A stretch of DNA of 64,000 nucleotides from a candidate division WOR-3 bacterium (GTDB taxonomy: Bacteria > Hydrothermota > Hydrothermia > Hydrothermales > JAJRUZ01): assembly GCA_039803925.1 (NCBI GenBank), contig JBDRZL010000003.1:67855-131854 (forward strand), given 5' to 3'. A program made the translations under genes and the position numbers. A model generated the notes under the pieces. That model saw only the letters and a list, made by a program, of their open reading frames with translations. It searched no databases and was not told where the DNA came from. This document shows, one piece after another, positions 20,419 to 30,038 of this stretch. Positions within the stretch are counted from its first letter, which is position 1. The number at the start of each line of letters is the position of its first letter.

Positions 20419-21716
20419 AAGATCTTTTTGAAATTATAGATAAACCGCAGAATTTTCCTTATTGCCCTGGTTGCGGGCATACTTCAATTGATATGGCTCT
20501 TGCAAGGGCAATTTTTGAACTCAATCTTGAAAAGGAAGATGTTTTAATTGTTTCAGATATAGGTTGTGTTGGCCTTGTTGATAAACTTTTTAATGTTCAT
20601 ACTTTACATACCTTGCATGGAAGATCAACAGCTGTTGCATCTGGTGTAAAGATGGTTGATGAAGTTCTTTTTGATAACAAATTAAAAACAATAGTTATGA
20701 TAGGTGATGGAGGAGCAACAATAGGACTTCTTCATCTTGTTGAATCTGCAAAGTTAAATGTTGATATTACAGTTCTTATTCATAACAATTTTCTTTATGG
20801 AATGACAGGTGGTCAGCATTCTGGTTTAACTCCAAAAGAGTTTAAGACCTCAACCACAAGGATAGGTAACCCTTTTGAAGCTTTAAGAATTATTGATATT
20901 CTGAAAAATTCAGGTGCTTCCTTTTATGCAAGAACCTTTTCTCAGGATCCTGATTTAAAAGATATAATAAAAGAAGCTTTATCCCACAGAGGTTTTTCTG
21001 TTATTGAAGTTCTTGAATTATGTACAGGTTATGCCACGAGATATAATGATTTAAAGGGAAGTGATTTAAAGATAATTCTTGAAAATTCAGGTGGAAAAAT
21101 TAAGGAAAAAATTGAAAGGGAAAGTTTTTGTTTTTTGTATAAAAATAAATTTTTTGATAAAAAGGGTGAATTTGAATTTACAGAGATTGAAGTGGAAAAG
21201 AAAATAGAGTTAAAAGATTCACTAAAAATAGTTATAGCAGGTTCAGCAGGTGAAGGGGTTCAGCTTGCTTCTTCTCTTTTATGCATTTCTGCAATTTTAG
21301 GAGGACTAAATTCCACTCAGAAAAATGATAATCCGGTTACAGTTGGAAGCGGTTTTTCTGTTTCAGAAATTATAATAAAGGACGGAGATATAAAATACAC
21401 TGGCATTGAAGAGCCTGATTATCTTATTATTACCAGTATAGATGGTTTAAAAAGGGCAAAAGGTTTTATAGAGAGGTCTAAAAATATAATTATAGATGAA
21501 TCTTTAACTGATAATAAAAATTTTATAAAAGTTCCAGCAAGGAAATATATAAAATTAAGAGGTGGACCCACTTACTTTTCTCTTGGTGTTCTTTTTGGAA
21601 AATTTAATCCTTTTGATTTTGAACTTTATGAGAAAGCTATTTTAAAATATGGAAAGGCTAAAGATGAGACCTTAACCTGTTTTAGAGAAGGATTAAATTT
21701 TGGAAGAAGATTATAG
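20415..21716 (+). CDS. 2-oxoacid:ferredoxin oxidoreductase beta subunit (TPP-binding) fused to a gamma-like domain.
   Basis: CPGCGH and GDGG (MIGDGGATIG) TPP motifs in the N-terminal 250 aa. The C-terminal 180 aa (IAGSAGEGVQLAS...) resemble PFOR domain III (gamma). Confidence 0.75.
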   Translation: MKDLFEIIDKPQNFPYCPGCGHTSIDMALARAIFELNLEKEDVLIVSDIGCVGLVDKLFNVHTLHTLHGRSTAVASGVKMVDEVLFDNKLKTIVMIGDGGATIGLLHLVESAKLNVDITVLIHNNFLYGMTGGQHSGLTPKEFKTSTTRIGNPFEALRIIDILKNSGASFYARTFSQDPDLKDIIKEALSHRGFSVIEVLELCTGYATRYNDLKGSDLKIILENSGGKIKEKIERESFCFLYKNKFFDKKGEFEFTEIEVEKKIELKDSLKIVIAGSAGEGVQLASSLLCISAILGGLNSTQKNDNPVTVGSGFSVSEIIIKDGDIKYTGIEEPDYLIITSIDGLKRAKGFIERSKNIIIDESLTDNKNFIKVPARKYIKLRGGPTYFSLGVLFGKFNPFDFELYEKAILKYGKAKDETLTCFREGLNFGRRL

Positions 21717-21747
21717 GGTTCTAATCCCATTAAAAAAGGGAGTTTTT

Positions 21748-24728
21748 ATGCTTAATTTACTATTAGTAATACTATCATTCTTCACTCCCTCATGGGAGAA
21801 AGTTCCCCCTGACCTTCAGGAAAAACTCAGAAGATCTTCAGAGGATGAAGTGCTGACTGTAATAGTTCTTATGAATCCTTTTCCTGATTATGAGTATTTG
21901 AAAACTATACCTGATATAAAGACAAGAGCAGATTATCTTAAACTTCTTGCATCTGAGTCTCAGAGAGAAATTCTTAACTTTCTATCGCAGAAATCAACTT
22001 CAGATGTAGTTTTATATGAGAGCTACTGGGTATATAATGGAATAAGACTTAAAGCAAAACCAGATGTTATAAAAGAAATCTTACAGAGGGATGATGTATT
22101 AAGAGTTGAACTTGAACCCGAGGTTTTTCTTATAAAACCTGAAAAAGTGGATAATACTCTTAATCCTGAACCTTTAGCTGCTCCTTGGAATATGCAGATG
22201 GTAGGAGCTGATTCAGCCTGGGCTAATGGTTTCAGGGGTGAAGGAGTTATAATAGGGAGTATGGATTCAGGTGTTGACAGAACTCATCCTGCCTTTTCTG
22301 GTGTTACCTTTAAAGGAAGAGATTTTACATCAGATGGAAATCCCTTTTCTGATGGTTGTCAGCATGGAACTCATACGACAGGGACAGCAATAGGAGGGAC
22401 AGGTAATTTTGGACCAAATGATATAGGTGTTGCGCCGAATGTTCCTACTTTTGTTATGGCAAAGATATTTGATAATAGTTGTTATGCCGGTAATATATCA
22501 GGTGGATTTCAATGGATTGCTTCTTTAAAGGCAGATTCAGGATTAAATATCAGGGCAGTTAATAATTCCTGGGGTTCCTGTACACAGACTTCACTTGCTT
22601 ACTGGTCAGCAATTCAGACATGGAGATCTCTTGAAATATTCCCAGTTTTTGCTATTGGAAATAATGCTAATTGTGGAACTTCCTGTACTTCCACAGGAAC
22701 AGCAGGAACACCTGGAAACTATCCAATTGTTATAGGTGTTGGCACAGTGGGTTCAGGAGCCTGTCATGATTGTGTTGGTCAGAGGGGACCTGCTCCTAAT
22801 CAATCCCCCTGGAATAATCCGGCAAACTGGTTTTATCCAACATGGAATTTGTTATAGGTGTTGGAACAGTGGGTTCAGGAGCCTGTCATGATTGTGTTGG
22901 TCAGAGGGGACCTGCTCCTAATCAATCCCCCTGGAATAATCCGGCAAACTGGTTTTATCCAACATGGAATTTATTAAAGCCTGATATAGCAGCACCTGGT
23001 TCAGGGGTTAGGTCATCTGTTCCTGGTGGTGGTTATGCTACATGGGATGGTTCATCAATGGCAACTCCTCATGTTACAGGAGCCCTTGCACTTATATTTC
23101 AGGCTAATCCTACACTTACTGTTGATAGTGCTTATTCTCTGCTTGTAAATACAACTTCAAAACCTAATAACTGTGGATACAGTTATCCAAATGATAGGGT
23201 TGGATGGGGTATTGTTAATGTATGGCATGCAATAAAGACACAACTTGGGCAGCCTGTTGTTACAATAGTTTCCTGGGATACCTCAGGAACTGGTTCTGTT
23301 TGGGATCCTGGTGAAACTGTTATTATTGATTTTGTTGCCAAGAATGTTGGTCAGGATACAGCTCTTACGCTCACAGGGAAATTAAGAACTACGAGTCCCT
23401 ATGTTACAGTTGTGGATTCTCTTGGTGCATGGCCTGATTTGGTTCCCAATCAGAGTGCTCCTAATACTGATAATTTTTCTGCCTATGCTGATCCTGGGGC
23501 ACCTATTGGAACGAATGTGAATTTTGTTCTTTATATTTATGGGTATGATGATAATGGTAATCCTAAAACCTGGACATACTACTTTTCACTTCAAATTGGC
23601 CAACTTGGTTCTACCACTTTTGATATTCCTGCAGGAAATGCTATTTTAACAGTTTCAAATAAAGGTGGGTTTCCTTCAGCAGATGAAGGGGGGAGTATAG
23701 GTCCAGGGACAGGTTTTAAGTGGCCAAAAACTGGTGCTAATCATCTTTATTATGGCTCTTTTGCAATTGGAAACAGTTCCACTTATGTTGTTGATGCTTT
23801 TTACAATGCAAGTGATGTATTTGATAGTGATTTTGCACCAAGGGATGGTTTGTGGTGGGTGAGTCCCTTTGTGGGAGATACTATGGCAAGGTCAGGTTAT
23901 GATGATTTAAGTCACGCAAGTCCTAAAAATATTTATGTAACACAATATGCTTTTGCTTTTTCTCAGACAGGTAATCCTGGGTGTGGTAATGGTGTTCTTG
24001 TTGAGCTTGATTTAATTAACAAGGGATCAAATCAGGTATCAGGGGTTTATGCTGGATTATTTATGGATTTTGATATAAATCCTTATAATCAAAATCAGGG
24101 AAATAAAGATTTAACAAGGAAACTTATTTATATGTATTATGGAAGCACTTATGTTGGTGTTTCACTTCTTGAATCTCAGGCTAATTTTATAGGTAAGTTT
24201 TTACATAATCCAACATATGTTTATCCTACTGGAAGACCGACAGAGACTGATAAGTATCAATTTCTTGCAGGACAGATTGGGAATGATCAGACTTCTGCTG
24301 CTGATGACTGGACAATTGTTGCTTCTTCAGGACCTTTTACACTTAATCCTAATGATACACAGAGGGTTGTTTTTGCCATAGTGGGAGGAAGCAGTCTAAC
24401 GAATTTACAGCAGAATGTTGATGCAATCATAAACTGTTATTCTACACTTGTAAAGGAAACAAAGGTTAATTTAAAAAAGGTTCTCTTTTTGAAGGCTGAA
24501 AGAAATCCTAAAGGTATAAATATAATTTACAGCTTACCATACAACTCAAAAATTACTCTTGATATTGTTGATGTGGCAGGAAGAATAATTAAAAATATTG
24601 AGAAGGGTGAAAGGAATACAGGTTTATACTTTGTAAATCTGAAGAAAGAAGAAGTTGGAAAGGGAGTTTTCTTCCTGAGATTGAAAACCGATAAGGAAAG
24701 TCGCGTTGTTAAATTCCTTAATTACTAA
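21748..24728 (+). pseudogene. S8 subtilisin-like serine protease with a T9SS-type C-terminal domain, disrupted by a 122-bp tandem duplication (reported as two ORFs).
   Basis: Asp (DSGVDRTHPAF), His (HGTHTTGTAIGG) and Asn (NNSWG) motifs are in ORF 21700..22857. Ser (GSSMATPHV) and the CTD are in ORF 22842..24728. The frames join if one copy of the repeat is removed. Likely true start is the ATG at 21748 after AAAAAAGGGAG. Confidence 0.8.
22729..22972 (+). repeat. Two-copy tandem direct repeat with a 122-bp unit (121/122 identical).
   Basis: Copy 1 at 22729-22850 and copy 2 at 22851-22972, read directly. The single C/A difference at unit position 15 is silent. 122 is not divisible by 3, so there is a frameshift and a TAG at 22855-57. 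Confidence 0.9.
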
Positions 24729-24787: not shown

Positions 24788-25867
24788 TTGAAGTTTCTTT
24801 TTATTTCTTATTATTTTCCACCAGAATCATTTGCTGCATCTATAAGAGCATATAACTATATTAAATATTTAAAAGATTTTACTGAACCTGTTGTTCTAAC
24901 AAAAAAATTGCCTTCAAAAATTTTAAAAGATAATTCTTTAATAGAGGATTTGATAAATGTAAAAATAGAGAGAGTTTTTGATTACTTAATTTTTTTAAAA
25001 ATGCCTTTAGGAATCAGAAATAAAGGTGGAAGGGAATTAAAAAGATATTTAAGACCATTTTATAAAAGAGCAAAAATGCTTTTAAAGGAAGAAAATTTTA
25101 AATTCATATTTGTTACAATTCCGCCCTTTGAACTTTTAAAAGTTGCTCTATCCCTAAAAAGAAGATTTAATTTACCCCTTATATGTGAGATAAGGGATCC
25201 TGCAGATTTTGAGAGCGGAAAGAAATTTAAAAAATTTATTAAAAATTCAGAAAATATAGTTGATTTATTTATAGGTTCCCATTTTTATGTTTTGAAAAGT
25301 TTTGGTATAAAGGGCTATGTTTTGCATGGAGGCATAATAGAGTTTGAAAGGAGAGCTCATGAGGGATTTAACATAATTTATACAGGAACCCTAAAAAATG
25401 CTATGGAAAGTTTTGTAAGATTTGTGAAGTTTACAGAATCTATTAATTACAATCTTTATCTTTTGGGTCCTGAGGTAAGATTAAAAGATAAAAGAATTAA
25501 AAACATTGGCTATGTGGAATATAAAAATTTAAAAAATTATTTTGAAATTGCAGATTTATTTATAATTTTTAGGGATAGTGATACTAAAAATTATATTCCT
25601 CTTAAATTTTTTGAATATTCTGGAAGTTCTGTTCCTGTTCTTGCTTATTTTAAAAATTTTTCAAATCTTTTTTCTTACCTTGAGAAATATAAAAAAGGTA
25701 AGGGTTTTGTTTGGGGAGAAGAAGATAAAATGCTAAAATTTATTGAAGATATAAAAAAAGGTAAGTTATTTTTTGAAAAAGCTTTTAAACCCTGGAAGGA
25801 TGTTTCTCTTGAGCTTTTAAAGGTAATAAATGAAAAAGTTCTTAACAGGAATAACCGTTTGTTTTAA
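24788..25867 (+). CDS. Glycosyltransferase (GT4-like).
   Basis: The N-terminus FISYYFPPESFAASIRAYNYIKYL resembles the GT4 N-domain. The C-terminal motif was not verified. Confidence 0.45.
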   Translation: MKFLFISYYFPPESFAASIRAYNYIKYLKDFTEPVVLTKKLPSKILKDNSLIEDLINVKIERVFDYLIFLKMPLGIRNKGGRELKRYLRPFYKRAKMLLKEENFKFIFVTIPPFELLKVALSLKRRFNLPLICEIRDPADFESGKKFKKFIKNSENIVDLFIGSHFYVLKSFGIKGYVLHGGIIEFERRAHEGFNIIYTGTLKNAMESFVRFVKFTESINYNLYLLGPEVRLKDKRIKNIGYVEYKNLKNYFEIADLFIIFRDSDTKNYIPLKFFEYSGSSVPVLAYFKNFSNLFSYLEKYKKGKGFVWGEEDKMLKFIEDIKKGKLFFEKAFKPWKDVSLELLKVINEKVLNRNNRLF

Positions 25868-26621
25868 TAGCAGTGAAGTTATAATTAATTTAATTAATTC
25901 CATAAGGAAAATTTTAAATAATGAAATCGAATGGATAATTGTTGATTCAGGTTCAAAGGATAAAACCCCATCAATTTTAAAAAAAATAAAAAATGTTAAA
26001 ATTTTCTTATTTAAAAAAAATATTGGCTTTTCAAAAGGTAATAATTTCGCTTTTAGATTGTCTTTAGGTGAATATGTTTTTTTCTGTAACCCTGACATTT
26101 CTTTTGATAAATCTAACTTTGAAAGAATTATCTATGAATTAAAAAAATATAAACCTCTGATTTTGGTTCCCCTTTTAAGAAAAGATGATAAATATTATTA
26201 TTTTTTAAGAGCCTTACCCTCTATAGAAAATATACTGAGATTCAGATGGCATAAAGGGATAATTAAAAAGGTTGAAAAAATTCAACCTGCTTTTTCTGCA
26301 ATTTTTTTAAAAAGAGAAGTTTTTGAAAAACTTTTTGGTTTTGATGAAAAATTTTTTGTTTATTTTACAGATGTTGAATTTTTTAAAAGATTTTATAATA
26401 AAGGATTTAAAGTTAAGGATATTTATTTTTCAAAAAATTACTTTTCCCACAAGGGTTCATCTATTCTTTTAAGTAGAAAAAATGAATTTTTGAAAAAATT
26501 TGATTTTGCGAGAGGTTTTTTAATTTATTTTTTAAAATATGGGAATTTAATTGAAAAAAATTTTTCTATTTTTTTATTTATTTTTTTGCTTTTAAGGGCT
26601 TTTTATTATTATTTTAAATGA
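25830..26621 (+). CDS. Glycosyltransferase family 2.
   Basis: ITVCFNSS...EWIIVDSGSKDKT (the DxD-preceding GT2 block) and the FFCNPDISF block. Confidence 0.6.
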   Translation: MKKFLTGITVCFNSSEVIINLINSIRKILNNEIEWIIVDSGSKDKTPSILKKIKNVKIFLFKKNIGFSKGNNFAFRLSLGEYVFFCNPDISFDKSNFERIIYELKKYKPLILVPLLRKDDKYYYFLRALPSIENILRFRWHKGIIKKVEKIQPAFSAIFLKREVFEKLFGFDEKFFVYFTDVEFFKRFYNKGFKVKDIYFSKNYFSHKGSSILLSRKNEFLKKFDFARGFLIYFLKYGNLIEKNFSIFLFIFLLLRAFYYYFK

Positions 26622-28842
26622 AGTTTTTTTCTTTTAGGAAATTAAGAATTTCTTCCTCATTCATTTTTACTGGAAAAGTTTTTAAATTAAACCTAATATA
26701 AAAAATAAGTGAATTTGTATTTTTAATTTTCTTATTAATTATCTTAAATTCATTTTCCGCTTTATCAAATTGTTTTGTATGATATAAATATAAAAAATAA
26801 GGTATTCTATAAGTTGTTTGTCTATAAATATTTTCTTTGCAAATTTCAATTGCCTTTTTGAAATATTCCTCTGTTTTCTCATATTCTTCTTTTTTAAAAT
26901 AAATTTTTGCAAGAAGCATATTTTTTTCACTTTCAAGAATTTTTCTTTCTGTCTGTAAGGATAGTGCAATCTCTAAGGCTTTTTCTGTATTGCAATTTAT
27001 AAGATTGTAAAAAGATTCAAAAAGATTCATATCAAAGATAATTTCAGGATCTTTATATTCCTCATAAATTTCTTTTAACTTTTCATTAATTGAGTAAGCT
27101 TCTTCAAAATTCTCCATAAAAACATAGTAATCTCTTAGAACAGTGTAATATGTATTTAAATAGTAATAACTTTTTGATTTTTCAATTGATTTTTTCATTT
27201 CATTTAATGTACTTAAAGCCTTTTCTATGTTTCCAGAATAAAAATAGCTTTGAGATAACCAGCCGAGGGTATAGGCAATTAGGTCTTCATCAGATGTGTG
27301 ACTTAAGGCTTCTTTATAATTTTTTTCAGCAAGTTCATATTCTCCTTTTCTTAGATAAATTGAGGCAAGGTTTGTAAGTAATAGGGAAAGTCCTCTTTTT
27401 GATATTTTAATATTTTTTGCTATTTTTAATGCTTCTTCATAAAATTTTTCTGCTTCTTCTAAATTTTCCTTCATTGAATTAATTGCTCCGAGTAGATTAT
27501 TTAAGCGATAAAGAATTCTTTTTTCGATTTTTTCTTTATAGAAAAGGCCATTATAGGCATTTTTTTCTGCTTCTTCATAATTACTTAAATAGTATAATCC
27601 GGCTCCTTTCAGATAGTAATAAACACCCAAGTATAAAGGTTCCAGTTTATTTATATCAATTTTTTCAATCTCCTTCAGAGTTTCTTCAAATTTATGTTCT
27701 AAGAGATAGATCTGTGCTCTGATTAATATTATAAGGAAGTTCTGACGGATTTCTTCTGGTAATTTATCGAGAATTGGTTCTATTTCAAGGACTCTATTTG
27801 TTTCGAGTATATCTAAGAATTTTTTATTTAAAATATCAAGAATTTTTGAATAAAATTTTAGTTTTTCAAGATAAAAGAGTGCCTGGAAAAAATCTTCCTT
27901 TTCAAGGTAATATTCAATGGCGTTGTCAAGTATCCATTTTTTTAGCAATAGTCCCTTTGGGCTTTTTTCAAGTTCCTTTTGAAGGTATTCTCTGAAAAGG
28001 GGATTTAAGTAATAGTAGTCACCAGCTTTTTCTACAAAAAGGAATTTTTTAGTTATTTCATCAATAAATTTTTCTGGTTCTTTCAATCCAAAAATTCTTT
28101 CAAGGTCTTCTTTTTTAAATCTTTCAAGACAGGAAATTCCCATAACTAAGCTTTTTTTATCTGGTTCAAGAGACATAAATTTTTCTTTTAAAATATTTTC
28201 AATATAATCTGATTCTATTTTTTCTGGTATTATATTTTTAGATAAATACTCTGATAAGAAGATTCTTGTAAAAAGTCCATGTCCGCCAGTTTTTGACAAA
28301 ATTTTCTCAATATCTTTTTTTTTGAAAGTTATATTATTCTTTATTAAAAAATCAATTACTTCTTCCTCGGTTAAAAGGAGATAGTTTCTATCAATCCTTT
28401 CTGTTTGGGTTTCAAGAGGTGTTTTTATTTCTTCTCTTGTTTCTATTAAAAAGCTTATTTCAGGGTTTGAATTTATACTTATATTCCATAATAAACTTTC
28501 AGTTTCAGACCCCTTTATTTCTTCAAATCTCTCAAATATAAAAAGTTTAATTTTTTTTTCTTCTCTGAAAAAATTAATAAGTGAATTTTTCATTCCCTCT
28601 AAGCTTTCCGCTTCACCTCTTATGAATTTTTCACTAAGTCTTCTAAGGAAATAAGCTGGTTTTTCGTCTTCCTTTGTTAAAACAAATCTTTCATAAGGAA
28701 TTTTTGTTTCTAAAGTAAATTTCTCTATTAATTCACTTTTTAAAAGCCCTGGTTCTCCGCAGATTATTATATATTTTTTCCCTATGCTACTCTTTAATTT
28801 ATTTAATGCTTTTAAGGGAATAAGATCTTTAATTACTTCCAC
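26614..28842 (-). CDS. STAND/MalT-like protein with a degenerate P-loop and C-terminal TPR repeats. No DNA-binding domain.
   Basis: N-terminus IIICGEPGLLKSE (GxPGxxKS where GxPGxGKT/S is expected), then a Walker-B-like LFIFERFEE, then about 450 aa of TPR-like repeats (YYxLGxxYxxxGxYEEAxxxY pattern). Confidence 0.55.
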   Translation of the reverse strand: MEVIKDLIPLKALNKLKSSIGKKYIIICGEPGLLKSELIEKFTLETKIPYERFVLTKEDEKPAYFLRRLSEKFIRGEAESLEGMKNSLINFFREEKKIKLFIFERFEEIKGSETESLLWNISINSNPEISFLIETREEIKTPLETQTERIDRNYLLLTEEEVIDFLIKNNITFKKKDIEKILSKTGGHGLFTRIFLSEYLSKNIIPEKIESDYIENILKEKFMSLEPDKKSLVMGISCLERFKKEDLERIFGLKEPEKFIDEITKKFLFVEKAGDYYYLNPLFREYLQKELEKSPKGLLLKKWILDNAIEYYLEKEDFFQALFYLEKLKFYSKILDILNKKFLDILETNRVLEIEPILDKLPEEIRQNFLIILIRAQIYLLEHKFEETLKEIEKIDINKLEPLYLGVYYYLKGAGLYYLSNYEEAEKNAYNGLFYKEKIEKRILYRLNNLLGAINSMKENLEEAEKFYEEALKIAKNIKISKRGLSLLLTNLASIYLRKGEYELAEKNYKEALSHTSDEDLIAYTLGWLSQSYFYSGNIEKALSTLNEMKKSIEKSKSYYYLNTYYTVLRDYYVFMENFEEAYSINEKLKEIYEEYKDPEIIFDMNLFESFYNLINCNTEKALEIALSLQTERKILESEKNMLLAKIYFKKEEYEKTEEYFKKAIEICKENIYRQTTYRIPYFLYLYHTKQFDKAENEFKIINKKIKNTNSLIFYIRFNLKTFPVKMNEEEILNFLKEKNFI

Positions 28843-28851
28843 CTATAAATT

Positions 28852-29955
28852 TTATTTTTTTTGATTTAAAATTTTCAATATAAAGGTTAAAATAGGTAAA
28901 AAAATCAATATAGAAAGATATAAGTAGTTTATTTTTTCAGTATAAATAAAAATACTTTTACTTGATAAAAAATTTAAAAGAAAAAAAATTGTTTTTTTTG
29001 TTATCTCTGTAAAAATTAAAAATCTTTCTGTCAAAAATCCAAAAGGTGAAATTAAACTTATTATTCCTCCAAGTATAGATAAAAAAATAAGGGGTGAGAG
29101 AATAATATTTGATAATGGAGCAATAAGTGAAATATTTTTGAAAAAAAAGTAAATATAAGGAAAAACAAATAGCTGTGCAGAAAGTGAAACAGAAAAGGGA
29201 AGGTATAAGAAGTTTCTTAAAAAATAGTTTTTAATTTTCATTTTGTTAAAAAGGGGGAATAAAACTATTATTCCTGTTGTTGCAAGATAGGATAGATGAA
29301 AGCCTGGGTCAAAAGCGCTTTCAGGGAAAAATGTAAGGGATAAAAGTCCAGCATTTCCCAGAATAGAAAGTGGATGTACCTTTATATTTAAAGAAAAAGT
29401 TAAAAGAAAAGATACTATCATTATATAGGATCTCAAAACAGAAGGTCTTAATGGAATAATTGATGTATAAAAAGTGAGTCCTAAAACTGAAAGTATCATC
29501 GCCTTTTTAAAGTTTAGTCTTAAAAAAATAAAAAAGAAAATAAAAATAGATGCTATTATTGCCATATGAAGACCTGAAATAGCAAGAAAGTGAAGTGTTC
29601 CTGTTTTTATAAATTTTTTTAAATTTTCTTTATTTAATTTGCTTCTTTCACCTAATAAAAGGGTAAGTAAGAATTCCTTTGTTTCCGATTCAAAGTTTTT
29701 TTCTATTTTGTTTTTAAAGTATTTGTTTAAATTTTTTAGCAAAATAGGATAATTCAAATTTTTACTTTCTTTTTCATTTAAATAAAAATGCAGACTTCCA
29801 AGTGGAATAAAGGTTAAATATTTAAATGGTGAAATTAAAAATATTAAAAAAACTAAAATACTCAAAAAAAAATTTTTAATGTTTTTACCTAAAATTATTC
29901 CAGAAAAAAAGAGTATAAAGATAATAAAACTTGGGTATTTTTTAAATATTTGCAT
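28852..29955 (-). CDS. ComEC/Rec2-family competence-domain membrane protein (short form).
   Basis: LLLGERSKLNKENLKKFIKTGTLHFLAISGLHMAIIAS matches the ComEC competence-domain signature (...G..HLLAISGLHV...). Polytopic. No C-terminal MBL domain. Confidence 0.6.
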   Translation of the reverse strand: MQIFKKYPSFIIFILFFSGIILGKNIKNFFLSILVFLIFLISPFKYLTFIPLGSLHFYLNEKESKNLNYPILLKNLNKYFKNKIEKNFESETKEFLLTLLLGERSKLNKENLKKFIKTGTLHFLAISGLHMAIIASIFIFFFIFLRLNFKKAMILSVLGLTFYTSIIPLRPSVLRSYIMIVSFLLTFSLNIKVHPLSILGNAGLLSLTFFPESAFDPGFHLSYLATTGIIVLFPLFNKMKIKNYFLRNFLYLPFSVSLSAQLFVFPYIYFFFKNISLIAPLSNIILSPLIFLSILGGIISLISPFGFLTERFLIFTEITKKTIFFLLNFLSSKSIFIYTEKINYLYLSILIFLPILTFILKILNQKK

Positions 29956-30038
29956 TTTTAAAAAATATATGGTATTTTATAGAGATTTATTTTAAAGGTT
30001 CAAATCCTAAAGTTTTTTAATCAAAAGGAGTTTTTAAG

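What the first reader, a model, noticed from the sequence alone, without database searches (positions are those of the whole stretch)
26614..29955. A two-gene operon pairs a short ComEC/Rec2-like membrane protein with a degenerate-P-loop STAND/TPR protein.
On the minus strand, 28852..29955 encodes a ComEC competence-domain protein with the ISGLHM signature but no metallo-beta-lactamase nuclease domain. It is followed 10 nt later by a 742-aa protein with a MalT/STAND-like N-terminal domain whose Walker A is GEPGLLKS (the second Gly is lost). This protein also has a Walker-B-like LFIFE, about 450 aa of TPR repeats, and no HTH or other output domain. A sensor-like STAND/TPR protein coupled to a membrane channel-like protein is not a described competence, defence or regulatory module. 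It lies in an accessory-looking region between glycosyltransferase genes and cspA. This is a candidate uncharacterised signalling or defence pair. I cannot assign it to any known system.
Basis: partly seen in the sequence, partly recalled or inferred. Interest (0 to 1): 0.55.

Follow-up and report, generated by a model that had tools for sequence, protein, structure and literature searches.

The report
Minimal ComEC beside degenerate STAND-TPR protein
In a hot-spring bacterium of candidate division WOR-3, a stripped-down DNA-uptake channel gene (ComEC) sits 9 bases upstream of a MalT-like switch protein that has lost its ATPase catalytic residues and has no output domain; the two genes are real, but they travel together only in one small clade, so this is a modest curiosity and not a new system.

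Summary
Both ORFs and all quoted motifs are real. The 367-aa protein is a channel-only ComEC (Pfam Competence, E 6e-44) with no OB fold and no MBL nuclease. This architecture is already described.

The 742-aa protein is a true MalT-clade STAND: NBD-HD-WHD-arm-TPR, AF2 pLDDT 87, best PDB match 6MFV. It has no effector domain. Its catalytic site is degenerate in every family member: GLLKS where relatives have GxGK[ST], FE[RK] where they have hhhDD, and a variable sensor-I Arg. Among remote relatives, 92 of 94 have the canonical Gly.

The pair keeps a fixed 9-nt spacer in all five lineages with ComEC at least 53% identical. All of these are Hydrothermales MAGs or metagenome contigs, and the whole core-gene neighbourhood is syntenic there. 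The pairing breaks both ways outside that subclade. Three short ComECs at about 40% identity lack the STAND gene. A deep STAND relative (L026) follows a Thi4-like gene and tRNA-Pro instead.

I found no defence, phage, plasmid or island signal.

Most likely this is a lineage-specific operon joining the cell's ComEC to an orphan, hydrolysis-dead STAND-TPR adaptor. A direct ComEC-STAND partnership remains possible (about 0.25-0.3) but is untested.

The parts
28852..29955 (-). Minimal, channel-only ComEC/Rec2 (367 aa). It has 2-3 N-terminal TM helices, about 14-30 residues where the OB fold would sit, then the competence/channel domain. It ends right after the last TM helix, so there is no MBL nuclease.
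   Evidence: Pfam PF03772 E 6.1e-44 over res 99-359, with no DUF4131 or Lactamase_B. TIGR00360 E 1.1e-18. phmmer maps res 90-347 onto res ~227-495 of solved full-length ComECs 30bt and 9vc6. The AF2 model has pLDDT 84.6, is all-helical, and res 42-65 are disordered. Residues G119 H122 S127 G128 R175 F219 S222 F272 are invariant across 37 ComECs.
26614..28842 (-). 742-aa effector-less MalT-clade STAND protein (NBD-HD-WHD-arm-TPR), cytoplasmic, with a GTG start.
   Evidence: AF2 pLDDT 87, pTM 0.68. Foldseek top PDB hit is 6mfv_A (STAND-TPR PH0952), E 4.5e-11 over 695 columns, followed by MalT 8bob_C and Avs3 8dgc. The NOD profile hits about 330 MalT/LAL/BTAD-type STANDs at E 4.5e-15 to 1e-3 over positions ~10-340. 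Precomputed PF25873 WHD_MalT and PF17874 TPR_MalT.
28393..28842 (-). NBD (res 1-150): P-loop-type beta-alpha-beta fold with degenerate catalytic motifs.
   Evidence: Strands E25-29, E50-54, E100-104, E129-133 and E147-150 in the model. Aligned to canonical NBDs of relatives. Mean pairwise identity between lineages is 60%, as high as the rest of the protein.
28735..28758 (-). Degenerate Walker A, G29-E-P-G-L-L-K-S36. The Gly before the Lys is replaced by Leu; the Lys and Ser are kept.
   Evidence: Identical in all 9 full-length family members examined and in deep member P0134. Relatives have G at this position in 92/94 and K in 94/94.
28519..28545 (-). Walker-B-like strand L100-F-I-F-E-R-F-E-E108. 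Relatives have hhhD-D here; this family has E-R (E-K in some members).
   Evidence: Alignment. Relatives have D at the first position in 107/118 and D/E/N at the second in 112/118. FE[RK]F[ED]E is the family-specific pattern.
27961..28392 (-). Helical domain plus winged-helix domain (res 151-294), including the invariant T185-x-G187-H188-G189 where relatives have T[ES]GW.
   Evidence: PF25873 WHD_MalT precomputed.
26677..27960 (-). Arm plus TPR sensor (res 295-722), about 21 helices. The arm motif KWILDN is the most conserved stretch.
   Evidence: Helices H295-H722. TPR_12 E 6.1e-18 and other TPR families. Arm mean identity 68%. KWILDN is retained in L026.
28843..28851 (-). 9-nt spacer between the comEC stop (TAA) and the STAND start. 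There is no terminator, and the length is fixed in five lineages.
29974..30003 (-). Sigma70-like TTGAAC-N18-TAAAAT upstream of comEC, in the 83-nt divergent region shared with cspA.
   Evidence: 9/12 match; not significant alone in this AT-rich DNA. Conserved in window, L008, L009 and L015.
28849..28878 (-). Sigma70-like TTGAAA-N18-TAAAAT inside the 3' end of comEC, ending 6 nt before the STAND start. Possible internal promoter.
   Evidence: 10/12. Both hexamers are conserved in all five lineages while the spacer bases vary. Coding constraint could also explain this.

Best explanation
This is a lineage-specific, probably co-transcribed gene pair in the core genome of one subclade of Hydrothermales (candidate division WOR-3). 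It is not an obligate two-component system.

Gene 1 is the cell's minimal ComEC. It keeps the membrane channel that in studied bacteria passes single-stranded DNA into the cytoplasm. It lacks the periplasmic OB-fold and MBL nuclease modules.

Gene 2 is a cytoplasmic MalT-clade STAND protein (NBD-HD-WHD-arm-TPR). Its nucleotide site has lost the Gly of GK[ST], the Walker B Asp-Asp pair and a fixed sensor-I Arg. It has no fused effector.

Inferred mechanism: the protein no longer cycles by ATP hydrolysis and works as a ligand- or protein-binding adaptor or scaffold. The TPR and arm bind a partner. The NOD supplies a conformational or oligomerisation platform. Output is through protein-protein contact.

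Shown here: gene reality, folds, motif degeneracy, purifying selection, phyletic distribution and synteny.

Inferred only: loss of hydrolysis, the adaptor role, co-transcription, and the DNA-channel function in this organism.

The adjacency to comEC is best read as a clade-specific operon arrangement. ComEC is the obvious candidate partner, but a partnership is not required by the data (I put it at about 0.25-0.3).
For: ComEC identity and minimal architecture. The C-only profile is already described, including in naturally competent species (PMC6299819). TM4-9 form the ssDNA channel, and H. pylori ComEC is similarly reduced (PMC13539106).

STAND fold.

Degenerate catalytic positions are invariant within the family, against 92/94 G, 107/118 D and 97/130 R in relatives. 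The NBD is still 60% conserved between lineages, so it is constrained and not decaying.

No effector domain at E<=1. Several remote relatives are also effector-less (P0139, P0144, P0146, P0147).

The pair, with its 9-nt spacer, is found in every locus with ComEC >=53% identical. There the whole ychF-cspA | comEC-STAND | GT2-GT-POR neighbourhood is syntenic.

The pairing breaks in both directions deeper in the tree. L010, L011 and L016 have the short ComEC at ~40% identity without STAND. L026 has the STAND family at 33-35% identity, still with GEPGLLKSE, FEK and KWILDN, behind a Thi4-like gene and tRNA-Pro.

A conserved promoter-like element directly before the STAND start allows independent expression.

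Degenerate-P-loop STAND/NLR proteins acting as adaptors have precedent (PMC3478704).
Against: - A fixed 9-nt spacer, same strand and no terminator, kept over ~45% protein divergence, is what a functional operon looks like. That argues for some coupling.
- K35 and S36 of the P-loop are retained and invariant, so nucleotide binding without hydrolysis is not excluded. No biochemical test was possible.
- L026 is a short, low-quality contig. It contains Ns and the gene is split 236+494 aa, so it may be a decaying copy and not a free-standing functional orthologue.
- I could not search the whole genomes. I therefore do not know whether this is the only ComEC, or whether the outgroup genomes carry the STAND gene elsewhere.
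Confidence: 0.5

Rival explanations
1. Dedicated ComEC-STAND module. The STAND-TPR protein docks on the cytoplasmic face of the minimal ComEC. There it gates or stabilises the channel, or recruits ssDNA-handling proteins, filling a role that cytoplasmic partners such as ComFA/ComFC play in Firmicutes.
For: Co-directional genes with a fixed 9-nt spacer and no terminator in five lineages down to 53% identity. The STAND has no effector domain of its own, so it must act through another protein. ComEC is known to work with cytoplasmic partner proteins (PMC12663950). In L007 the STAND gene was duplicated in tandem and both copies stayed behind comEC.
Against: The whole neighbourhood is syntenic in the same lineages, so adjacency carries little extra information. 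The nearest outgroup short ComECs lack the STAND gene. A deep STAND member is not next to ComEC. A conserved promoter-like element precedes the STAND start. No interaction evidence of any kind exists, and no literature describes such a pair.
Confidence: 0.27
2. Canonical nucleotide-driven MalT-like switch. Despite the substitutions, the NOD still binds ATP/ADP. It then oligomerises on ligand binding and controls transcription or another process through a separately encoded DNA-binding or enzymatic partner.
For: The P-loop Lys35 and Ser36 are invariant. The NBD is as conserved as the rest of the protein. Homology to MalT/LAL/BTAD regulators extends over the whole NOD. The overall fold matches ADP-bound PH0952 (PMC6468293).
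Against: Leu replaces the Gly preceding the Lys, which 92/94 relatives keep. The second Walker B acidic residue is Arg/Lys. The sensor-I Arg varies R/S/K within the family. From general knowledge of P-loop NTPases (not tested here), a side chain at that Gly position strongly lowers nucleotide affinity. No HTH is present.
Confidence: 0.12
3. Anti-phage defence or abortive-infection pair. A STAND sensor recognises a phage protein through its TPRs and activates a ComEC-like membrane protein as a membrane-disrupting effector.
For: STAND NTPases with TPR sensors include antiviral Avs proteins, and Avs3 appears among the weaker fold matches. The membrane protein is encoded next to a sensor-like protein.
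Against: PADLOC gives only generic TPR hits for the STAND and nothing for ComEC. There are no relatives in viral contigs, phage records or plasmids. The neighbourhood is housekeeping, syntenic and free of mobile or defence genes. The distribution is vertical and confined to one clade, with only 2 GTDB species genomes. The ComEC keeps the invariant channel residues of bona fide ComECs. The nucleotide site, on which Avs-type activation depends, is degenerate.
Confidence: 0.04

Closest known systems
PH0952 of Pyrococcus horikoshii (PDB 6MFV), STAND ATPase with TPR sensor
   Same: It is the best structural match: Foldseek E 4.5e-11 over 695 aligned columns. It has the same NBD-HD-WHD-arm-TPR order.
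   Different: [quoted passage not shown] The window protein has no effector and a degenerate Walker A, Walker B and sensor I. Sequence identity is only 16%.
MalT / LAL (large ATP-binding LuxR-family) and BTAD-type STAND-TPR regulators
   Same: The NOD is homologous over its full length (hmmsearch E 4.5e-15 to 1e-3). There are WHD_MalT and TPR_MalT Pfam hits and a fold match to MalT 8bob_C.
   Different: These regulators carry GerE or BTAD output domains and canonical GxGK[TS] and hhhDD motifs. The window family has neither.
Competence-only ('C profile') ComEC, e.g. Helicobacter pylori ComEC
   Same: It has only the transmembrane competence/channel domain, with no DUF4131/OB fold and no MBL nuclease. 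This profile is described and occurs in naturally competent species (PMC6299819; PMC13539106; PMC12663950).
   Different: At 367 aa the window protein is shorter than the 417-872 aa range reported for known ComECs. It is only distantly related in sequence. Its function in this uncultured organism is untested.
ComEC-ComFA-ComFC tripartite DNA-import complex of Firmicutes
   Same: It is a precedent for cytoplasmic proteins docking on ComEC's cytoplasmic face (PMC12663950). It serves only as an analogy for the module rival.
   Different: ComFA is a DEAD-box helicase-like ATPase and ComFC is a PRT-fold protein. Neither is a STAND or TPR protein. No homology to the 742-aa protein was found.
Plant and animal NLRs with naturally degenerate or dispensable P-loops (rice Pb1, ADR1-L2, NLRC4 helper functions)
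   Same: These STAND-superfamily proteins function as adaptors or scaffolds without the canonical P-loop cycle (PMC3478704).
   Different: They belong to a different clade (NB-ARC/NACHT with LRR sensors), are eukaryotic, and have an immune function. There is no direct homology beyond the superfamily.
Avs antiviral STAND NTPases
   Same: They have a STAND NOD plus a TPR-like sensor. Avs3 (8dgc) is a weak fold match.
   Different: Avs proteins carry fused effector domains, lie in defence islands and are covered by PADLOC models. None of this applies here.

Membership tests
ComEC/Rec2 | Transmembrane Competence domain (PF03772) | tested here: met
   E 6.1e-44, 150.8 bits against a cutoff of 23, res 99-359. 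TIGR00360 at 68.1 bits against a cutoff of 36.5.
ComEC/Rec2 | Conserved channel residues and alignment to the channel region of solved ComECs | tested here: met
   G119 H122 S127 G128 R175 F219 S222 F272 are invariant in 37 ComECs. Res 90-347 align to res 227-495 of 30bt and 9vc6.
ComEC/Rec2 | N-terminal OB fold (DUF4131, PF13567); common but not universal | tested here: not met
   No Pfam hit at E<=1. The AF2 model is all-helical, with only a ~14-30-residue linker at the expected site. Most remote homologues do carry PF13567.
ComEC/Rec2 | C-terminal metallo-beta-lactamase nuclease domain; common but not universal | tested here: not met
   No Lactamase_B hit. The protein ends after the last TM helix, H344-366. 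It falls below the full-length equivalog cutoff for TIGR00361 (65.8 against 190 bits).
ComEC/Rec2 | Required for ssDNA import in natural transformation | not testable with these tools
   The organism is uncultured and known only from MAGs. This needs genetics or heterologous complementation.
STAND NTPase, MalT clade | NBD-HD-WHD core (NOD) followed by arm and repeat sensor | tested here: met
   AF2 model at pLDDT 87. Match to 6mfv_A at E 4.5e-11. NOD profile hits to MalT/LAL/BTAD STANDs. PF25873 and PF17874.
STAND NTPase, MalT clade | Walker A GxxxxGK[ST] | tested here: not met
   The motif is GEPGLLKS. Leu replaces the Gly that 92/94 relatives keep, while K and S are retained. It is invariant in the family.
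STAND NTPase, MalT clade | Walker B hhhhD[DE] | tested here: not met
   The motif is FIFE-R (E-K in some members). Relatives have D in 107/118 and D/E/N in 112/118.
STAND NTPase, MalT clade | Sensor-I-like Arg after strand beta-4 ([ST]R) | tested here: inconclusive
   Arg is present in the window protein (T135-R136), but the position varies R/S/K among orthologues. Relatives have R in 97/130.
STAND NTPase, MalT clade | ATP binding and hydrolysis, and ligand-induced oligomerisation | not testable with these tools
   This needs purified protein.
LAL / MalT transcription regulators | C-terminal LuxR-type HTH (GerE) or other DNA-binding effector | tested here: not met
   No GerE, BTAD or HTH hit at E<=1. 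The model ends with TPR helices and one short helix, 729-738.
Avs / antiviral STAND defence systems | Match to curated defence models | tested here: not met
   PADLOC gives only generic TPR models at E 6.8e-06 and 4.6e-04 for the STAND, and none for ComEC.
Avs / antiviral STAND defence systems | Fused effector domain (nuclease, protease, etc.) | tested here: not met
Avs / antiviral STAND defence systems | Variable, island-like or mobile genomic context with patchy distribution | tested here: not met
   The core neighbourhood is syntenic in all lineages. The window holds housekeeping genes only. There are no viral, phage or plasmid relatives.

The most novel reading that the evidence does not exclude
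The hydrolysis-dead, effector-less STAND-TPR protein is a dedicated cytoplasmic partner of a minimal ComEC channel. It would act as a gate, stabiliser or docking platform for incoming ssDNA-handling proteins. That would be a previously unknown kind of DNA-uptake accessory factor, and the first STAND protein whose 'effector' is a separately encoded membrane channel.
Probability: 0.25. Interest if true: 0.6.

Novelty: new variant of a known kind. Interest (0 to 1): 0.3.

Why it matters
If the two proteins really work together, this would add a new accessory factor to the ComEC DNA-import machinery. The cytoplasmic side of that machinery is poorly understood outside Firmicutes. It would also show a bacterial STAND protein signalling without hydrolysis to a separate membrane protein.

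Even without that link, the family is a clean natural example of a MalT-clade STAND with a conserved, degenerate catalytic site and no effector. That makes it useful for asking what a NOD does when it cannot cycle.

The scope is narrow. The family is confined to a few uncultured Hydrothermales genomes (2 GTDB species representatives), and the ComEC architecture is already described. The general impact is therefore modest.

Tried and rejected
- Defence hypothesis: rejected. PADLOC, viral contigs and tblastn against phage and plasmid records were all negative.
- 'Accessory region': rejected after Pfam annotation of 20 further window ORFs and synteny comparison.
- Sequence-profile search of the NOD against PDB sequences found nothing (best E 0.69). 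Only fold comparison and the 1.84-billion-protein profile search showed the STAND relationship.
- Foldseek of the ComEC model against the PDB copy gave no hit (best E 2.4), apparently because the full-length ComEC cryo-EM entries are not in that library. A sequence search of PDB chains found them instead.
- The L007 paralogue could not be included in the structure job.
- A literature search for ComEC with STAND/TPR gave no relevant paper. The one apparent hit (PMC12799240) only concerns the ComEC MBL nuclease fold.
- The genome-contig scan returned only two species genomes, so a broad co-occurrence statistic was not possible.
- The promoter and terminator consensus scan is not significant by itself in this AT-rich DNA (29 sites found against 20.7 +/- 5.1 expected). 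I rely only on cross-lineage conservation of two sites.

Full report
OBSERVATION. The two minus-strand ORFs exist exactly as reported: 28852..29955 (367 aa, ATG) and 26614..28842 (742 aa, GTG). The quoted motifs ISGLHM, GEPGLLKS and LFIFE are in the translations. The gap between the genes is 9 nt (28843-28851), not 10. These are real genes and not chance ORFs. The local DNA is 23-26% GC and stop-rich. Full-length orthologues of both proteins, with the same lengths, occur at 53-93% identity in other assemblies. The source organism is a candidate division WOR-3 / Hydrothermales MAG, with identical loci in GCA_039804065, GCA_039803885 and GCA_039803965.

THE ComEC PROTEIN. Pfam Competence (PF03772) matches at E 6.1e-44 over residues 99-359. 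No DUF4131/OB-fold or Lactamase_B hit appears even at E<=1. NCBIfam agrees on the ComEC N-terminal/channel subfamily domain, and the protein falls far below the full-length equivalog cutoff. An AlphaFold2 model from a 37-sequence alignment (pLDDT 84.6, pTM 0.81) is entirely helical. It has two clear N-terminal TM helices, a low-confidence stretch at 42-65, and then the helical bundle. There is no beta-barrel and nothing after the last TM helix (344-366). By sequence, residues 90-347 align to residues ~227-495 of solved full-length ComECs 30bt and 9vc6. According to the 2026 cryo-EM paper, that region contains TM4-9, which form the ssDNA channel (PMC13539106). Eight residues invariant over 37 diverse ComECs are retained.

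This 'Competence-only' profile is not new. Pimentel & Zhang describe it as one of four ComEC domain profiles. It is present in 6 ComECs of known competent species, and they infer it as ancestral (PMC6299819). H. pylori ComEC is similarly reduced. Conservation at the protein level extends to residue 1 in all lineages. The 367-aa reading is therefore correct, not the shorter 283-337-aa gene calls found in some annotations.

THE 742-aa PROTEIN. A 10-sequence alignment gave a confident model (pLDDT 87, pTM 0.68). It has an N-terminal beta-alpha-beta domain (strands 25-29, 50-54, 100-104, 129-133, 147-150), a helical domain, and a winged helix with hairpin 270-279. About 21 helices follow, from 295 to 722, and there is a short terminal helix. 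The best solved-structure match is 6MFV, the STAND-TPR protein PH0952 (Foldseek E 4.5e-11, 695 columns). The MalT NOD (8BOB) and Avs3 rank lower.

A profile of the N-terminal 345 residues was searched against 1.84 billion representatives. It found one 50% cluster for the family itself plus fragments, and then about 330 weaker relatives (E 4.5e-15 to 1e-3) matching over positions ~10-340. The ten I scanned are MalT/LAL-type (GerE), BTAD-type or effector-less STAND-TPR proteins. The precomputed Pfam hits WHD_MalT and TPR_MalT agree. No HTH or other output domain is detectable.

DEGENERATE CATALYTIC SITE. I aligned 147 remote relatives to the family profile.
- The Gly preceding the P-loop Lys is G in 92 of 94 relatives. 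The only other Leu is P0140, a fragment of the same family. The Lys is present in 94 of 94.
- The Walker B first acidic residue is D in 107 of 118 relatives, and the second is D/E/N in 112 of 118.
- The [ST]R sensor-I-like Arg is present in 97 of 130 relatives.

The query family has Leu, Lys, Glu, Arg/Lys and R/S/K at these positions. GEPGLLKSE and F[IV]FE[RK]F[ED]E are invariant in every member with an N-terminus, including the 33-35%-identical L026 protein. The NBD is nevertheless as conserved between lineages (60%) as the rest of the protein (52-68%). So it is constrained and not decaying.

I infer, from general knowledge of P-loop NTPases and not from any test here, that hydrolysis is lost and nucleotide affinity is at least strongly altered. 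Retention of Lys35 and Ser36 leaves binding possible. STAND/NLR proteins that function with natural or engineered P-loop defects as adaptors have precedent: Pb1, ADR1-L2 and NLRC4 (PMC3478704).

IS THE PAIR A UNIT? The two genes are co-directional, with no terminator between them. The TAA + 9 nt + GTG/TTG junction has a fixed length in five lineages. Every locus whose ComEC is at least 53% identical carries the STAND gene immediately downstream. These are the window lineage (L001-L006), L007, L008/L014, L009/L012 and L015. In L007 the STAND gene is tandemly duplicated. The copies are 70.7% identical, and P0010 from another MAG is the orthologue of the second copy at 78%.

Three observations limit what this adjacency means.

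(i) In those same lineages the entire neighbourhood is syntenic: rpsF-ssb-rpsR-rplI, ychF, cspA | comEC-STAND | GT2, a 359-aa gene, POR subunits. Gene order has simply not been randomised at this depth.

(ii) The nearest outgroup ComECs have the same short architecture at about 40% identity (L010, L011, L016). They sit at a different locus with no STAND gene nearby.

(iii) The only deeper member of the STAND family I could place, L026, follows a Thi4-like gene and tRNA-Pro, not ComEC. That contig is short, contains Ns, and its gene is split 236+494 aa.

In addition, a TTGAAA-N18-TAAAAT element ends 6 nt before the STAND start. It is conserved in all five lineages while its spacer bases vary. 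That would allow expression independent of comEC, though coding constraint could also explain it.

The family is rare. It occurs in only two GTDB species-representative genomes.

NOT A DEFENCE ISLAND. PADLOC gave only generic TPR models. There are no relatives in IMG/VR contigs, INPHARED phages or PLSDB plasmids. The remaining window genes are housekeeping: Wzy-like, PlsY, GH3, LpxB, Der, a Na+/H+ exchanger, aminotransferases, RpiB, T9SS-sorted S8 proteases and dehydrogenases. No integrase, transposase or known defence gene was seen. The pair has somewhat lower GC (0.23 and 0.26) than the window (0.30). The same mild trend holds in all lineages, so it is a property of these genes and not a sign of recent transfer.

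VERDICT. The most likely reading (about 0.5) is a lineage-specific operon that places the cell's minimal ComEC next to an orphan, effector-less, hydrolysis-dead MalT-clade STAND-TPR adaptor. A dedicated ComEC-STAND module is the main rival (about 0.27) and the most novel reading not excluded. A still-functional nucleotide switch with an unlinked partner (about 0.12) and a defence system (about 0.04) follow.

The ComEC architecture is already known. The STAND family is a new variant of a known kind. Interest is modest (0.3). It would rise to about 0.6 if an interaction with ComEC were shown.

Noticed in passing
window 22727-22970 (within 21700-24728): A near-exact (99%) 122-nt tandem duplication (22727-22848 and 22849-22970) splits a subtilisin-like S8 protease gene into 385-aa and 628-aa ORFs. 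Because 122 is not a multiple of 3, it causes a frameshift. In the otherwise identical contig L001 the gene is a single 968-aa ORF. This is either an assembly artefact or a very recent disrupting duplication. The same 22-24 kb stretch has the highest GC of the window (0.41 against 0.30).
   Followed up: partly
window 28849-28878 (-); same position in L007, L008, L009, L015: A sigma70-like TTGAAA-N18-TAAAAT lies inside the 3' end of comEC. Its -10 overlaps the comEC stop codon and ends 6 nt before the STAND start. Both hexamers are conserved in five lineages while the spacer bases vary. All five STAND orthologues start with GTG or TTG and have no Shine-Dalgarno sequence. This could be an internal promoter giving a near-leaderless mRNA.
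   Followed up: partly
L007 8001-10226 and 10250-12478; L013 3-1793: The STAND-TPR gene is tandemly duplicated in GCA_039630235. The copies are 70.7% identical, and both keep GEPGLLKSE and FVFE[KR]FEE. P0010 from a second MAG (DT_Bin_18) is 78% identical to the second copy, so the duplication predates those two genomes and both copies were retained.
   Followed up: partly
L026 1-3318 (JGI 3300002481): This is a deep-branching member of the STAND family (33-35% identity) that retains the motifs GEPGLLKSE, FEK and KWILDN. It sits after a Thi4-like gene and tRNA-Pro(CGG) at 401-476. The gene is split into 236-aa and 494-aa ORFs and the contig contains Ns, so it could be a sequencing error or a pseudogene.
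   Followed up: partly
L010 6556-6918, L011 724-1086, L016 5634-5996: The outgroup short ComECs (~40% identity) are each preceded by a 120-aa ORF, and a V-type ATPase A subunit gene lies convergently downstream (Pfam-annotated in L010 and L011; a 584-aa convergent ORF at the matching position in L016). The 120-aa ORF has no Pfam hit in L010 and L011. It may be a different conserved partner of minimal ComEC in that lineage.
   Followed up: no
window 29974-30003 (-) and 29956-30038: comEC and cspA are divergently transcribed from an 83-nt intergenic region. A TTGAAC-N18-TAAAAT element upstream of comEC is conserved in four of five lineages. This suggests a short, SD-less 5' UTR.
   Followed up: partly
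window 26614-26621: The 3' end of the STAND gene overlaps the 3' end of the convergent GT2 glycosyltransferase gene (25830-26621, +) by 8 nt. The same convergent overlap is seen in L001-L009, so no terminator space exists between the two transcription units.
   Followed up: no
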